This document shows, piece by piece, positions 54,001 to 63,000 of a stretch of DNA of 64,000 bases (position 1 is its first letter; the number at the start of each line of letters is the position of its first letter). The position numbers are program-made. Origin of the DNA: Thalia democratica (Eukaryota); NCBI GenBank assembly GCA_965202585.1, contig OZ241830.1, forward strand, positions 59,892,001 through 59,956,000. The letters run 5' to 3'.

Positions 54001-57000
54001 AAAATAAATTCAAATACTTTTCTAACAACTATCGAGTCTTTTCTATACGTATCACCGTTATTCTAAAACTCTAATTTATTTTCTCCGGATCAACGAATCT
54101 TTCCAACGTGACCTTTATTGCCTTCCACGAGCATCTTACGTTGGGACTCTCTTCGGAAGTGCACACCTTCAACGCTTCCAGTCCCGAATGGCCCTTCATC
54201 ACTGCTTCTGAGAGAATGTTTCTGAACACGAGTTTTGAAAACAGGCAAACGTACAGCTGGGCGTCGATTCCGTGACATCTGTTTAAATGTAACATGTTTG
54301 TTTTAAGTTTGTAGTATTCAAAATAACGCAATAGTTTAGTATTACTTATCAACATGCGAAAGCTAATTGAAGATTATAATGTATTTCTTGTTAAGTTTCC
54401 TGATAATTATGATATGTTTATCGTAAAATGTTTCAGCTTTTCAAATTTTAATGACTGATTTAATTTAAACTAAAGCCTAGTCTAAAGTATTTTTACTTGG
54501 CATTATAAATGACAAGACTTATGTTAATTTAAGTTACTATTTCAAGTAATCTAAATTACTAAACATAAGTTTTTAAGTATTTTTTTATAATAAAATTTAC
54601 TTATTTGAATACGGGTCACACATGCCAATCAGTTCTTCGCAATTTTGTCCGTACTCGTTGAAAAACTTCTCCTTGTGCAAAAGATCGTGGGAGTGACACA
54701 TGGGTGCGAGTAGGCAAATTACGTTGCTCATAAACCTGGAAATATATATTGTAAACTAAAACAAATAAAAAATTTAAAAGCAAAAACAATAAATCGAAAG
54801 AGCACTGAATATAGTATAACACAAAAGTTTTTTTTTGTTCAAATTACTTAATATTTTATGACCTTAAAAATTTATCACCTATTATTGTAAAAGGTTAAAA
54901 GAAGCTTGTAAATTTGTTCTTCGAAATAATATCATGTACGATTTTTTACCTAAAAAATGTTTGAATAAAAATGTAAATGCTTCTAATTAATTAATATAAT
55001 GATAACAGTATTATGAACTACTTTAAACTAAAAAAAAATTTTATAAAATAGTAAATACTTCTGGTAAGTGTTTTGCTGTATACTTCTGATAGGAAGAAAA
55101 TAAAAGTGGTCAACATTAATGAGCTTAACTTCAAAAGCTTTTGTTACAATCATTTGAGTAGGCTCAAAACCAAAAAGTAGAATTCTGTAAAAATGTTTTT
55201 TTAGTATAACAACAAACGTACAATCATATTTGAATACAAAACTTAAACAAATCATTTAAAAAATGTTTTTTTCAGTTAATGATCTTAAACTAGATTAAAA
55301 CTTGGTATGATTTTAACAATTCAAAGTACTTTTAATAAATTTTGTTTTATTACACAGTTAACTTTCAAAAGTTGTTTTATTTATTTTTATAATTTTTTTA
55401 GTTTTTTGACTCATCAGATATTCTGGAAATGTACAAAACCTTACTACAATGTTACGTACTATTCACAACAGAAAAAATAATAATATCAAGTCCAAACAAT
55501 TCGCAGTAATTATAAATTTTAAAACTTATATTCAAAAACTTTTAATTTATAGAAAAGAAAAACTTTACTCTATAAGTATTATGGTTAACAAGATAAATGT
55601 TTTAATCTTATTTAAGTTACAATCACACTTTTTTAAGTTTAATTTTTATTTAACAACTGGAAAACTTAAGTATATATAAAGTATGTTTATTTAAGTTAAC
55701 GTTTGAGCATAAACAAAAATTTTATTGTACATACATAAGATGTTAAACTTTTCTTAAGTCTAACCCCTTTTGGTAAAAGTTGTTAAACACTTCAGCTATA
55801 TTTTTGAGCAAAAACAAAGCTGTTTTTTGAGAATTGTCCTGCTTGCTTATGCGTTTATTTAATGCAGAGAGCTCCTTACAATCATTCTCAACGCTTGGAT
55901 TGCACAAAGATAAATCTTGATCAAATCGTTCCACAATATAACTGCAAAAAAAGTATTGTTAAGATAAAATCTAAGATTTTTGTAACTTTTAGATGATAAA
56001 ATTAAGCATAACCACATAGTAAAGTTAAGGTTAAGTTTATGATTATCAAGTTCACAAAATATGAATTAGGTTTTTTTTGCTGTAAAACTTTTCAATCATG
56101 AATAGGAATTGGCGTAGATTGATTGACTTACAAACTTCTTTTAAGTGTTTTTACATTAAGTAATGCACAAACTACTAAGTATTAGTTTAAATTTTATAAA
56201 CTTTTGTGATATTAAACTTTAAAAATTAACTTTAATTATAAGAAACTTTAAGGTAGGATTGAGCAACAGTCAGCAGGTCAGATTAACCAAAATAAAGTCT
56301 TTGGTAAGCTGCGTTACTTAGAAAATTTTGTTATAAAAGTTAATTAAACTTTTTAAAACAAAACTATGTTTAAATTTTACAAACAATTACTTAAATGATT
56401 AATTCAATTGCAGCAAACGCAGAAAAATTTTATGAGTTTAAACCGATTTTTCGCTAAAATTTAAAGCTTTTCAAAATATCACCTGATGTAGGTTTTTACC
56501 TGATGTAATGACCTGATGTAGGCTGTTAAACTAACTAAAATTACAATATACTTTACTTACATCTAGTGTACAATAAACTATATTGTTTAACGTATATACA
56601 TATTTAATGCATTTTTTAAAGCTTTTTGGTTAGTTGTTTTTACCAATGTGAAGTTTTAAAAAATAGTTCTCTGTTTATAATATAAATTTCAGATAAAAAA
56701 AACTGTCATAAACAAACAAAAAAAGATTAATTTTGCATTTAAATTTACCTAATAAAATGAATTTCTGTGGGCGAACTTGACTTGCAGACGTCCTTCTGAT
56801 TGGCTGAACGCGCGCATGCTGCGTAAACTCGGGGAATACCCGGCCAATTTTGCATTCTAAGCAATCTAGCCAGGGTTTCTTTCTTTTGGAAAAAGCTGTC
56901 GCCGTTCTCGTATTCAAACAACGTCACTCCATTCATGTCCTTTCTATAATGTTTATAAGCGGCTTTATAATTTTAATATTTTTGTTTATAACTACCTTAA

Positions 57001-60000: not shown

Positions 60001-63000
60001 TTAACAACAAAAAATACTAAATTTTATTCATTACATAAATATGAAAAACCGTGAAACGTAAAAAACAAACTTAAGAAATTTATGTTTATATACTATGACT
60101 TAAATTTTAAAGCAATGTAACATATATAGTTTCAAATGTATCAAGCTACTATAGTTTGGAAAAAGTATAATAAATCTTTTGTTTAACTAATTACTATCAA
60201 AATTTTACAATTAAAAGTTATATTACTGAAGAAGTTTAGTTTTGCATATAAGTTTGTTAATCCATGCTATCGTGACGCACCGTGTCATTTAGTCGTTGTG
60301 TCAAAGTGACGTATCGTGTCATTTTGACGCTGTGCCAAAGTGACGCCCCGTGTCATTTTGTCGCTGTGCCAAAGTGACCCTCCGTGCCAAAGTGACGCAC
60401 CGTGTCGTTTTGTCGCTGTGCCAAAGTGACCCTCTGTGCCAAAGTGACGCACCGTGTCATTTTGTCGCTGTTCCAAAATGACGCACCGTGCCTAAGTGAC
60501 GCACCGTGTCATCTTGTCGCCGTGCCAAAGTGACCCTCTGTACCATAGTGACGCACCGTGTTATTTTGTCGCCGTGCCAAAGTGACCCTCCGTGCCAAAC
60601 TGACGCACTGTGCCAAGGTGACGCACCGTGTCATTTTGTCGCTGTGCCAAAGTGACGCACCGTGTCTATTTGACGACCGTGTCATTTTGTCGCTGTGTCA
60701 TTCTGACCCGCTCCCTAAAAACAAACCTTTTTAGAACTTTTACGATAATATGGCTCAAATAGTTAATATTAATAAATAGCAGGAATAAATGTAAACAAAT
60801 GTGATCAAAACCAACCTCTGGTAATATTAAACTTCTCAAACACAGGAATTTGTGTCTTATTGCATGTTTCTGTAAAATAAATTAGTAAAAAAAAGTTAAC
60901 TTAAAAGACCTTTAAAAGATAAAATGCTTAATTATACTACAAAAACAATTTTTTATTATTAACTAAAAACATAACACTTTCTGTATATTAAGTCATGCGT
61001 TCTTTTTTAAATAGCAAAAAAAATCAATGTTTTGTAAAAGAGCTTCGAATCAAACTATTAGTTTAAAAAAAAAATATTAATAAAGTTGTAGTAAACATAA
61101 CAGTTACAAAGTTACTGTTTGAATTTTGAAAGTTTACTAATCAAACAAAGTTAAAGAAAAATTTTAAAAGCAGAAACTATCAAATATATCTTTTTACTCA
61201 TACTTTAAGTGTACAAACCATGTTTTTTCTTAACGTATGTTTTATGTTCTAGTGTTTAAACTTCAAAACATTGTTTCATTTAAAGATTCTGATTAAAATG
61301 AACTTTATTTTTAGTAAATTTATATATCTTAATTTATTAGTTACTAATACACTATTTTTAATTTCGTTGTACAAATTTGTTTTTATTTAATTCAGAAATA
61401 TATTTTTATAACTTATAAAGTAATGCATACAATCTGTTTTGAAACTATTAATTCTTAAAGTCTTTCAATTTAAAAATTTTTTTTAATTAAACACTGTATC
61501 TTAGTTAATAAAAAAAAACTTACTTCTATATTTTATGTTGTTAAAGCTGAGGATGACAACATCATATGCTAACAGTGACAAAAGCAGTACACCATAAAAT
61601 CCAGTTTTATTTCTAACAAATAAACGAAATAAATAGTTACTTTTCATAACTAACACCTAACTAAATTCATCATTATATAAAAAACCAAAGGTAAATTTTT
61701 TTAAGTATGTAAAGTTAAAATGAAACATAGCTTCCATTGTAAAACTAAAAATGAAACTTATTATCACTGTTGACTTAATAAATACAGTGCGTAAATAAAA
61801 ATTCAATATTAGTAAGTTTGATTTATTTACGTTAGTTAGTGATATTTATATTGCTAGTTAATAATACTAGTTAGAAAAACAATATGTTCTTTTTGTGCTT
61901 AAAAATCAAAACGGTTTCTTTATACCTCCAGGCTAAGTTTTTTCAAATGGTACACTAAGCGGAGAAAAGTATCAAAACTTATTTCATTTTAAGAAAATGT
62001 TTTATAAATTTAGCAAATATTTATAGTTAAGTTATTTTAGGACTTTATTATATAAAACTTATAAAAAACTTTTATTTTGTACATATGTAAATACACAAAG
62101 TAAAACAGTTGTAGTATTTTTTTTTCAAACAAGAAGGATAAATTAATATACTTCTATTTTATATTAAAATATATTCACTAAGCAATACACACAGCGGAAA
62201 AATAGTTTAAAGTTCTTTAAATAAGAATCAATTGGTATTAAGTTTAAATATATAACTTATTTATCAATTTAATATCTTAAATTGCTAAATAACTAGTTTA
62301 TTTAATTCATATCTACTATAATACACAAAATATATTTATAGTTTAAGGTTTTTTTTTTAATAACAACTACAATAACAAATAATAATAAATATTTGCAAAA
62401 ATTATATTTGCTGAAATTATACGTGTATGTATGAGATCAAAAACGTTTTTCTAAACATTATTTTATTAAGGTTGTATTACTTAGTACAATGAAAAGTATT
62501 GATTGAATTTAACAAACAATATCTATTCAATTTTAACACTAACACATAAATAAAAATCAATAAACTAAATAAGTAAGCTACCTACTGAGAATTTTAATAC
62601 AGATTTTTGAAATGTATGGAAAGTATATAAAAATATGAATACAGTATTTTTTCCTATTTTGTTATATACTTTTGTTAACAAACAGTACTTTTTAAATTAT
62701 TAAAATCACGTTTTGATAATTCCGATACTAACAAAACGAATATTAAAAACTCAAAGCACTATTCAAATATCTACAACTGATATATTATGCCTCTTGCCCG
62801 TATTGTTTTTTAAATGTGCAACCGTATACAAACAAACCATGTAATATAAGTTCACAGTTATAAATATAAGTAAATATTTGTGTAAAAACAGAGTACTTTA
62901 AGCTCAATTATGCACATTAGAATGCTCTAATCTATGTTTAAGTAGAGGGTTGATATTTTCAACTGTACATAATTATACAGAGCATCTGGTTTTTTGTTCT

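What the first reader, a model, noticed from the sequence alone, without database searches (positions are those of the whole stretch)
54071..61647. Hidden 7-exon gene for a probable secretory-pathway pseudokinase (PKDCC/POMK/DIPK-like)
Seen: four exons appear in the ORF track only as unrelated fragments, and exon 1 (signal anchor) and the 54735-54613 frame are missing from it. Joined, they give a 396-aa type II membrane protein with a kinase-like motif order. Compared with PKDCC from memory: the Gly-rich loop (GSGYTK) is replaced by NSMLLE, the catalytic-loop Asp (LLDFRPRQ) by Gly (LLFGFEPTQ), and the metal-binding DLD by NVD. Luminal cysteines are retained. Inference: a catalytically dead Golgi or extracellular kinase-fold protein, possibly an allosteric partner in the way FAM20A activates FAM20C, or a glycan-binding scaffold. 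Caveat: POMK is active despite non-canonical motifs.
Basis: partly seen in the sequence, partly recalled or inferred. Interest (0 to 1): 0.68.

Follow-up and report, generated by a model that had tools for sequence, protein, structure and literature searches.

The report
Hidden seven-exon kinase-like membrane protein gene
A real seven-exon gene in an AT-rich eukaryotic genome encodes a small, membrane-anchored, cysteine-rich protein whose motifs resemble a catalytically dead secretory-pathway kinase, but the kinase fold could not be tested here.

Summary
The gene model holds. Seven minus-strand exons (61647-54071) have AG/GT borders and fitting phases, and sum to 1191 nt, which is 396 codons plus TAG. 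Exons 2, 3, 6 and 7 are 44-47% GC against 19-24% in introns 2-6. The model frame has the best codon score in 7 of 7 exons. Exon 1 encodes a charged N-terminus followed by a 19-residue hydrophobic core, as in a type II anchor. It is the weakest exon, and a second candidate exists.

The kinase reading is not confirmed by any tool. Searched exon by exon, 0 of 7 exons hit a kinase family in Pfam, 0 of 6 hit a kinase in the PDB, and 0 of 2 gave a usable Atlas lead.

What remains is motif evidence read by eye. Exon 5 has Gly, Gln and Asn at spacing 0/+5/+18, matching PKA D166/N171/D184 and FAM69A D294/N299/D312. There are 13 lumenal cysteines.

Most likely this is a divergent PKDCC/DIPK-type secretory pseudokinase, a kind already known from DIPK2B, Drosophila Allnighter and FAM20A. 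Interest is moderate.

The parts
61524..61647 (-). Exon 1 (124 nt). ATG at 61647, an in-frame TAG 4 codons upstream, donor GTAAGT. It encodes a 16-residue N-terminus with 4 Lys/Arg, then a hydrophobic core.
   Evidence: This is the weakest exon: GC 27%, and a codon score of -0.34 (-0.32 recomputed) against a control 95th percentile of -0.445.
61543..61599 (-). Predicted signal-anchor core. Residues 17-35 of exon 1; 19 aa with mean Kyte-Doolittle hydropathy 2.06.
   Evidence: Of 22 ATG..GT phase-1 candidates upstream of exon 2, this one has the highest hydropathy and a consensus donor.
57904..58141 (-). Exon 2 (238 nt). It encodes an acidic stalk-like stretch (15 Asp/Glu in 78 aa), then the start of the folded part. 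NSMLLE lies at 57963-57980.
   Evidence: GC 44%; codon score +0.74.
56749..56943 (-). Exon 3 (195 nt). Read by eye as helix C to strand 4 (a Glu, then '...PGIPRVYAAC').
   Evidence: GC 46%; +0.81. The secondary-structure assignment is by eye and untested.
55765..55941 (-). Exon 4 (177 nt). Read by eye as strand 5/hinge ('YIVERF') to helix E. It contains a loose EF-loop-like string, DQDLSLCNPSVE.
   Evidence: GC 34%; -0.06, above the control maximum of -0.145.
55059..55184 (-). Exon 5 (126 nt). This is the catalytic-loop-like and DFG-like segment.
   Evidence: (-0.09).
55154..55180 (-). LLFGFEPTQ. Gly (55169-55171) stands where the catalytic Asp would be, Gln at +5, and Leu at the HRD-His position.
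   Evidence: Read directly; spacing. Compared with PKA/FAM69A numbering in PMC3696010 and with PKDCC 'LVD'.
55109..55117 (-). NVD. Asn lies 18 residues after the Gly, where the metal-binding Asp of DFG/DLD would stand. The third-position Asp is kept.
   Evidence: DLD in POMK and in PKDCC.
54613..54735 (-). Exon 6 (123 nt). A 4-Cys segment read by eye as a long activation segment. An 'MCD' tripeptide lies at 54615-54623. An alternative donor lies at 54601.
   Evidence: GC 46%; +0.79.
54071..54278 (-). Exon 7 (208 nt, including TAG at 54071-54073). A 4-Cys C-terminal segment read by eye as helices F, H and I.
   Evidence: GC 47%; +1.00. Poly(A)-like signals lie 424-523 nt downstream.
58730..60717 (.). 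Foldback-type repeat element inside intron 1. It is not part of the coding sequence.

Best explanation
This is an intact, spliced, protein-coding gene on the minus strand of an AT-rich eukaryotic (animal-type) genome. Its product of about 396-400 aa has a short cytoplasmic tail, one signal-anchor helix, an acidic stalk, and a lumenal domain of about 320 aa with 13 cysteines.

I infer that the lumenal domain is a divergent protein-kinase-like fold of the PKDCC / DIPK (FAM69) / POMK group of secretory-pathway kinases. The catalytic Asp is replaced by Gly, and the metal-binding Asp of DLD/DFG is replaced by Asn. The Cys of the family's [LM][CL]D motif is replaced by Phe.

On that reading it cannot transfer phosphate in the canonical way. 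It would act in the ER/Golgi lumen, or after shedding, by binding as a regulator, scaffold or ligand, as other secretory pseudokinases do.

Shown here: the gene, its frame, the anchor-like exon, the cysteine content and the residues at the named positions. Inferred: the kinase fold, the residue equivalences, the lack of activity, the localisation and the mode of action.
For: Gene:
- AG/GT borders, fitting phases and 1191 nt.
- Exon/intron GC contrast.
- The model frame has the best codon score in 7 of 7 exons, and exons 2-7 lie above all 500 non-coding controls.
- The region holds 14 ORFs of >=70 codons against 1.44 expected in random sequence of intron composition. Several of these lie in the GC-rich intronic repeat.

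Anchor:
- Four Lys/Arg in the 16 residues before a 19-aa core of hydropathy 2.06.
- The upstream 5.9 kb holds 2 TM-like, strong-donor, phase-1 candidates, against 0, 0, 0, 1 and 0 in five control stretches.

Kinase-like features:
- In exon 5, Gly, Gln and Asn stand at 0/+5/+18. PKA D166/N171/D184 and FAM69A D294/N299/D312 have the same spacing (PMC3696010 section 6).
- Leu stands at the HRD-His position as in PKDCC (LVD) and in FAM69 ([LM][CL]D).
- Gln stands at the N171 position as in POMK.
- The last Asp of DLD is kept.
- A residue skeleton of catalytic loop plus strand 8/DFG, with the catalytic positions relaxed, matches once in the six frames of the window, at exon 5, and in 0 of 100 block-shuffled windows.
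- 13 lumenal Cys fall in the 12-18 range given for human FAM69 proteins.
- The distance between the putative helices F and H is short, which fits the reported lack of helix G in PKDCC and POMK (read by eye).

Precedents for dead secretory kinases:
- DIPK2B lacks the D166 equivalent.
- Drosophila Aln has the D184, D166 and E91 equivalents replaced and shows no autophosphorylation.
- FAM20A.
Against: - No search supports a kinase fold. 0 of 7 exon peptides hit any kinase family in Pfam at E<=10; the only hit was TASOR_alpha-beta at E=0.11, 13.1 bits against a cutoff of 27.
- 0 of 6 exons hit a kinase in PDB sequences at E<=10; the two hits of any kind, at E=0.14 and 1.6, look like chance.
- ESM Atlas gave no usable hit for exon 7. 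For exon 3 the best score was 0.87, with no kinase family among the rows shown.
- PKDCC and POMK proper are said to be recognised by the classic Pfam kinase models, so this protein is at best a divergent relative.
- The residue equivalences were made by eye.
- The skeleton was written after seeing the sequence. Its catalytic-loop half alone is unspecific in this AT-rich DNA: 58 matches in the window against a mean of 48.4 in shuffles.
- No homologue was available, so there is no evidence from conservation.
- The family disulfide partner in the catalytic loop is absent.
- There are 0 N-X-S/T sequons in exons 2-7.
- Exon 1 is uncertain.
Confidence: 0.5

Rival explanations
1. This is a lineage-restricted, cysteine-rich type II membrane or secreted protein that does not have a kinase fold. 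The kinase-like motif order would be a chance resemblance, helped by the hydrophobic, Lys/Asn-rich translations of AT-rich DNA.
For: Every search was negative for kinases. The catalytic-loop half of the skeleton occurs 58 times in the window and 48.4 times on average in shuffles. All canonical catalytic residues are missing, so nothing chemical ties the sequence to kinases. The exon 7 fragment had a low Atlas recognition value of 1500.
Against: The full skeleton with the exact +5/+18 spacing occurs only at exon 5, and in 0 of 100 shuffles. Several further family-like features lie in the expected order: Leu at the HRD-His position, Gln at the N171 position, the retained last Asp of DLD, high Cys content, and a type II anchor. 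Single exons of 40-78 aa are poor queries, so the negative searches are weak evidence.
Confidence: 0.3
2. This is an active, atypical secretory-pathway kinase (for protein or glycan) whose catalytic residues have moved to non-canonical positions, as in POMK.
For: POMK was classed as a pseudokinase yet is active, with residues in non-canonical places such as a Lys at the start of strand 2. This protein has Lys residues shortly before the putative strand 3 (exon 2 positions 69 and 71) and an 'MCD' tripeptide at the end of exon 6. Gln at the N171 position and Asn at the D184 position could still bind metal (inference).
Against: In POMK the catalytic Asp of MCD and the first Asp of DLD are kept and are essential. 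Here both positions are non-acidic. The 'MCD' lies just before the putative helix F, and only about 70 residues follow it, so it cannot be a catalytic loop in sequence order. A tripeptide of that kind is also likely by chance (my estimate is about 0.3 per protein).
Confidence: 0.12
3. This is not a functional gene as modelled. It could be a decaying pseudogene, or a wrong joining of ORFs, in particular a wrong first exon.
For: Many phase-compatible GT..AG pairs exist. Exon 1 has background GC (27%) and a borderline codon score. An alternative first exon at 58672-58600 scores alike, at -0.35. No transcript evidence was available.
Against: There is no stop or frameshift across about 1.2 kb of coding sequence in seven pieces. 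Codon bias and GC islands are strong exactly at exons 2, 3, 6 and 7. Exon 2 has no usable start of its own, so an upstream exon is needed.
Confidence: 0.06

Closest known systems
PKDCC (VLK, SgK493), secreted/Golgi tyrosine kinase
   Same: It sits in the secretory pathway. Leu stands at the HRD-His position (PKDCC 'LVD') and it has a D-L-D type DFG motif (xDFG 'TDLD'). It lacks an APE motif and helix G. PKDCC is present in non-bilaterian animals such as Nematostella.
   Different: Here the catalytic Asp is Gly and the first Asp of DLD is Asn. No Pfam kinase hit was obtained exon by exon, whereas PKDCC is said to be recognised by the classic Pfam models. That PKDCC has a signal peptide rather than an anchor is recalled, not checked.
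DIPK family (FAM69A-C = DIPK1A-C; DIA1/DIA1R = DIPK2A/B), including the pseudokinases DIPK2B and Drosophila Allnighter
[quoted passage not shown] Some members lack catalytic residues: DIPK2B lacks D166, and Aln has D184, D166 and E91 replaced.
   Different: There is no EF-hand insert between helix C and strand 4. The only loose EF-loop match is in exon 4, in the wrong place, and lacks Gly6 and Ile/Val8. There is no [LM][CL]D motif at the catalytic position. No PIP49/FAM69 Pfam hit was obtained exon by exon.
POMK (SGK196), protein O-mannose kinase
   Same: It is a type II membrane protein with a lumenal kinase domain. It lacks the Gly-rich loop consensus, has Gln at the N171 position and a DLD motif, has conserved cysteines, and has no helix G.
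   Different: POMK has a catalytic loop 5 residues longer (Asp202 to Gln212 is +10; to Asp225 is +23). It keeps the MCD Asp/Cys and the first DLD Asp. Here the spacing is +5/+18 and all three residues are replaced.
FAM20A, secreted pseudokinase that activates FAM20C
   Same: The concept is the same: a catalytically dead secretory-pathway kinase paralogue that works by binding.
   Different: It belongs to a different, unrelated kinase-like family, and FAM20A is vertebrate-only. No partner kinase is known or present in this window; tblastn of the 7 exons against the window found only self matches.

Membership tests
Protein-kinase-like fold (any family) | A significant sequence-profile or structural match to a kinase domain | tested here: inconclusive
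   Tested exon by exon only. Pfam gave 0 of 7 kinase hits at E<=10. PDB sequences gave 0 of 6. The Atlas gave 0 of 2. The whole-protein search and fold were left out by instruction, and structure prediction took no job.
PKDCC | Catalytic motif LVD and xDFG motif TDLD, with both Asp present | tested here: not met
   The aligned strings are L-F-G and I-N-V-D. Leu and the last Asp match, but the catalytic Asp and the metal-binding Asp do not. The PKDCC motifs are from passages of preprint 10.64898/2026.02.19.706771. The alignment is by eye.
PKDCC / POMK | Recognised by the classic Pfam kinase models PF00069/PF07714 (PMC3696010 discussion) | tested here: inconclusive
   No such hit for any of the 7 exon peptides. 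The published statement refers to whole proteins, which I did not test.
POMK (SGK196) | Catalytic loop with a 5-residue insertion (catalytic Asp to Gln +10, to DLD +23) | tested here: not met
   The spacing here is +5 and +18. The POMK numbers are from PMC5142810, and the insertion's uniqueness from 10.1101/776740.
POMK / DIPK1 | A Cys next to the catalytic Asp (MCD / [LM][CL]D) that is disulfide-bonded to a Cys in the activation segment | tested here: not met
   Phe stands at that position. Cys residues exist in the putative activation segment, at exon 6 positions 7, 13, 32 and 39, but the catalytic-loop partner is absent.
DIPK1 (FAM69A/B) | An EF-hand loop DxDxDGx[IV]xxxE inserted between helix C and strand 4 | tested here: not met
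   No match in exon 3. The one loose match, DQDLSLCNPSVE in exon 4, is after the putative strand 5 and lacks Gly6 and Ile/Val8. No EF-hand Pfam hit. The paper says other family members also have degenerate EF-hands.
DIPK / secretory kinases in general | A cysteine-rich lumenal kinase-like domain (12-18 Cys in human FAM69 proteins; 7 conserved in POMK) | tested here: met
   13 Cys in the whole codons of exons 2-7.
DIPK1 / POMK | An N-terminal transmembrane segment giving type II topology | tested here: met
   Exon 1 has 4 Lys/Arg before a 19-aa core of hydropathy 2.06. This holds only if exon 1 is the true first exon.
FAM20 / Four-jointed | A Fam20 C-terminal domain | tested here: inconclusive
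   No Pfam hit for any exon. I did not examine motifs of this family.
Pseudokinase (functional class) | A kinase fold without phosphotransfer activity | not testable with these tools
   The residues at the D166 and D184 positions are Gly and Asn under the by-eye alignment. Fold and activity are untested.

The most novel reading that the evidence does not exclude
This would be the first member of a lineage-restricted branch of the PKDCC/DIPK/POMK secretory kinase group that has lost the catalytic Asp, the metal-binding Asp and the catalytic-loop cysteine together. It would have diverged so far that no single exon is recognisable. It would then be either a pure binding module in the secretory lumen, or a kinase with a re-sited active site, for example one using the Lys residues before strand 3 and the 'MCD' at the end of exon 6, in the manner of POMK's active-site migration.
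Probability: 0.2. Interest if true: 0.55.

Novelty: new member of a known kind. Interest (0 to 1): 0.35.

Why it matters
Secretory-pathway kinases and their dead relatives are few and poorly understood. FAM20A activates FAM20C. Allnighter acts without kinase activity on proteostasis and sleep. DIPK2B has no known function.

A further, strongly degenerate member in an AT-rich, animal-type genome would add a data point on how often these lumenal kinase folds are reused as binding modules. It would also show which structural residues survive when catalysis is lost.

For annotation, it shows a complete gene that ORF-based views break into fragments. As it stands this is an ordinary gene-finding success with an attractive but unproven functional label.

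Tried and rejected
**Searches that gave no kinase evidence**
- Exon-by-exon Pfam search at E<=10: no kinase family. I take the TASOR hit (E=0.11) as chance.
- Exon-by-exon PDB sequence search for exons 2-7 (exon 1 was not searched): only an uncharacterised repeat protein (E=0.14) and haemoglobin beta (E=1.6). I take both as chance.
- ESM Atlas for exons 7 and 3: no usable lead.
- Structure prediction of the exon 7 peptide: the tool accepted no job on three tries, with the required waits between them. 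No fold search was therefore possible.
- Paralogue search within the window (tblastn of the 7 exon peptides): only self matches below E=0.01.

**Readings considered and dropped**
- EF-hand reading of exon 4: rejected, because it is in the wrong place and the key residues are wrong.
- 'MCD' in exon 6 as the catalytic loop: rejected, because too little sequence follows it.
- POMK orthology: rejected on catalytic-loop length.
- Alternative first exon 58672-58600: not rejected, only ranked lower. It has no charged residues, hydropathy 1.72, and T at -3.
- ORFs on the plus strand and in other frames of the locus: no Pfam family at E<=0.01.

**Steps not taken**
- Complex prediction was not used. No binding claim is made, and co-folding the exon pieces would have stood in for the joined step.
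- Genome contigs (bacteria and archaea only) and the phage, plasmid and E. coli collections were not searched, being irrelevant to a eukaryotic spliced gene.
- Supplements and figures of the papers (the family alignments) could not be seen.

Full report
**Setting**

The window is AT-rich. GC is 22-36% in 2-kb steps. There is one run of 100 N at 28437-28536, which I left alone. No Rfam family and no tRNA were found.

The plus strand carries spliced exons with IPT/TIG and G8 matches at 2-17 kb, and two MARVEL-domain genes at about 42-43 kb and 50-51 kb. This is a eukaryotic, animal-type genome. I do not take it for human.

**The observation**

I read the minus strand of 54000-58300 and 61300-62100.

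| Exon | Coordinates |
|---|---|
| 1 | 61647-61524 |
| 2 | 58141-57904 |
| 3 | 56943-56749 |
| 4 | 55941-55765 |
| 5 | 55184-55059 |
| 6 | 54735-54613 |
| 7 | 54278-54071 |

- All internal borders are AG...GT.
- The phases are 0 in and 1, 2, 2, 2, 2, 2 out.
- The lengths sum to 1191 nt, which is 396 codons plus TAG.
- The quoted strings NSMLLE, LLFGFEPTQ and NVD lie in exons 2, 5 and 5.
- The default ORF list shows five of the exons (2, 3, 4, 5, 7), not four.

**Is it a gene?**

Composition supports coding:
- Exons 2, 3, 6 and 7 have 44-47% GC and 51-60% GC3. Exons 1, 4 and 5 have 27-34% GC. Introns 2-6 have 19-24%.
- GC islands of >=38% in 51-64 kb coincide with exons 7, 6, 4, 3 and 2. The others are the two arms of an intronic repeat and one unexplained island at 52730-52849.

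Codon usage supports the frame. I trained a codon table on 295 codons from the Pfam-matched TIG, G8 and MARVEL stretches and scored it against intron triplets.
- The model frame is the best of three in 7 of 7 exons.
- Exons 2, 3, 6 and 7 score +0.74 to +1.00.
- Exons 4 and 5 score -0.06 and -0.09. That is above the maximum (-0.145) of 500 non-coding control pieces.
- Exon 1 scores -0.34, above only the 95th percentile of the controls (-0.445).

Weaknesses of the model:
- The junctions are not uniquely determined. There are 89, 52, 40, 44 and 62 phase-compatible GT..AG pairs for introns 2-6.
- The most serious alternative is a donor at 54601 (GTAAAT). It keeps the phase and adds 12 nt.
- Exon 2 has no start of its own, so an upstream exon is needed.
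- Of 22 ATG..GT phase-1 candidates in the 5.9 kb upstream, 3 are TM-like and 2 also have a strong donor. Five control stretches gave 0, 0, 0, 1 and 0.
Its hydropathy is 2.06, its donor is GTAAGT, and it has a purine at -3.
- The other candidate, 58672-58600, has a similar codon score and cannot be excluded.

**The protein, read exon by exon**

- Exon 1 gives 16 residues with four Lys/Arg, then a 19-residue hydrophobic core. That is a signal-anchor pattern with the N-terminus inside.
- Exon 2 begins with an acidic stretch: 15 Asp/Glu in 78 residues.
- Exons 2-7 hold 13 Cys and no N-X-S/T sequon. Split codons were not counted.
- No paralogue is present in the window.

**The kinase question**

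I left out the joined step: the joined protein was not built, searched or folded.

| Search | Exons tested | Result |
|---|---|---|
| Pfam, E<=10 | 7 of 7 | No kinase family. One chance-level hit of any kind (TASOR_alpha-beta, E=0.11, 13.1 bits against a cutoff of 27) |
| PDB sequences, E<=10 | 6 of 7 (2-7) | No kinase. Two chance-level hits (E=0.14 and 1.6) |
| ESM Atlas | 2 of 7 (7 and 3) | No usable hit for exon 7. For exon 3 the best score was 0.87, with no kinase family among the rows shown |
| structure prediction | exon 7 | Accepted no job on three tries |

No fold comparison was therefore possible. Single exons of 40-78 residues are weak queries, so these negatives do not exclude a kinase fold. 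They give it no support either.

**Motif evidence**

This part was aligned by eye. I compared it with family features taken from papers, of which I saw passages or the named sections only. I saw no figures and no supplements.

- PMC3696010 (sections 6, 7 and 9) reports for FAM69 proteins:
  - the catalytic Asp in an [LM][CL]D motif;
  - D294, N299 and D312 of FAM69A corresponding to PKA D166, N171 and D184;
  - 12-18 Cys in human family members;
  - a possible Cys293-Cys331 bridge;
  - an EF-hand loop between helix C and strand 4.
- PMC5142810 (passages) reports for POMK: type II topology, MCD, DLD, Gln at the N171 position, a catalytic loop five residues longer, and a Cys(MCD)-Cys(activation segment) disulfide.
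- Preprint 10.64898/2026.02.19.706771 (passages) gives the PKDCC motifs as LVD and TDLD, with no APE motif.
- Preprint 10.1101/776740 (passages) says PKDCC and POMK lack helix G, and that POMK alone has the catalytic-loop insertion.

Against these, exon 5 reads as follows:
- Gly, Gln and Asn stand at 0/+5/+18. This is the PKA/FAM69A spacing, not the POMK spacing.
- Leu stands at the HRD-His position.
- Phe stands where the family Cys would be.
- The last Asp of DLD is kept.

I wrote a residue skeleton of this segment with the catalytic positions relaxed. It matches once in the six frames of the window, at exon 5, and in 0 of 100 block-shuffled windows. Two cautions apply:
- I wrote the skeleton after seeing the sequence.
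- Its first half alone is common in this DNA: 58 matches against a mean of 48.4 in shuffles.

Two further strings were examined and set aside:
- The EF-loop-like string in exon 4 is in the wrong place and lacks key residues.
- An 'MCD' tripeptide at the end of exon 6 is too close to the C-terminus to be a catalytic loop. I note it as a possible, unlikely, relocated residue.

**Interpretation**

- Most likely (about 0.5): a divergent member of the PKDCC/DIPK/POMK group of lumenal kinase-like proteins that has lost the catalytic and metal-binding aspartates and works by binding.
- Rival (0.3): a cysteine-rich type II protein of another fold.
- Rival (0.12): an active atypical kinase with relocated residues.
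- Rival (0.06): a mis-modelled or decaying gene.

Within the group, POMK orthology fails on loop length. DIPK1 fails on the EF-hand and the [LM][CL]D motif. PKDCC fails on both aspartates. It should therefore be filed as 'PKDCC/DIPK-like, family unassigned'.

**Novelty**

Dead secretory-pathway kinases are already known:
- FAM20A (PMC7948968, passages).
- DIPK2B/CXorf36 (PMC3696010; PMC9941534, passages).
- Drosophila Allnighter, in which the D184, D166 and E91 equivalents are replaced and the protein acts without kinase activity (PMC10203134, passages).
- POMK is reported in all metazoan phyla except ctenophores (PMC4582122, passages), and PKDCC in Nematostella.

My three literature searches listed no paper on a gene like this one in a non-bilaterian or other AT-rich invertebrate genome. 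They were keyword searches of an open-access library and cannot show absence. If the reading is right, this is a new member of a known kind.

**What stayed unchecked**

There is therefore no conservation, no phylogeny and no comparison of intron positions.
- The whole-protein profile search and fold were not done.
- Transcript support is lacking.
- Paper figures and supplements with the family alignments were not visible.

Noticed in passing
window 58730-60717 (intron 1 of the model): A foldback-type repeat element. Identical 31-nt termini lie in inverted orientation at 58737-58767 and 60677-60707, the only 2 matches in the window. The arms are built of 18/34/52-bp tandem subrepeats, with 28 copies of the 18-mer, all inside the element. 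The inner arms, 59011-59549 and 60086-60624, are 96% complementary. The stretch 59100-60540 folds as a near-perfect hairpin at -599.5 kcal/mol. AAAAAC stands next to both ends and may be a target-site duplication. Its ORFs have no Pfam hit.
   Followed up: partly
window 26426-28565 and 29622-31805, + strand: A segmental duplication of a set of exons. Near-identical ORF translations occur at 26426/29622, 27150/30799 and 27573/31461. The last pair is 71% identical over 69 aa. Only the first copy continues into the long Thr/Pro repeat.
   Followed up: partly
window 27781-28417 and 28437-28536: A mucin-like Thr/Pro-rich coding repeat with a 24-bp unit in 26.5 copies. The window's only N run (100 bases) follows 20 bases downstream, so the repeat length is unknown.
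   Followed up: no
window 42125-42990 and 50220-50883, + strand: Two paralogous two-exon MARVEL-domain genes about 8 kb apart. Their second exons are 72% identical. The second gene ends about 3 kb from the 3' end of the kinase-like gene, in convergent orientation.
   Followed up: partly
window 2032-17046, + strand: Exons with IPT/TIG matches (three ORFs, E about 1e-6 to 4e-7) and a weak G8 match (E=0.0039, below cutoff). This suggests a large fibrocystin-like extracellular protein gene.
   Followed up: no
window 11946-12810: A GC-rich stretch that is open for 95-136 codons in several frames on both strands. The two plus-strand ORFs tested have no Pfam family. Its nature is unknown.
   Followed up: partly
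window 52730-52849: An isolated GC island (39%) 1.2 kb downstream of the gene's stop codon. Only a 55-codon plus-strand ORF overlaps it. Unexplained.
   Followed up: partly
window 54601-54613 and 58600-58672: Two alternative model elements. A GTAAAT donor 12 nt downstream of the chosen exon 6 donor keeps the same phase. A second possible first exon of 24 codons is uncharged and hydrophobic.
   Followed up: partly
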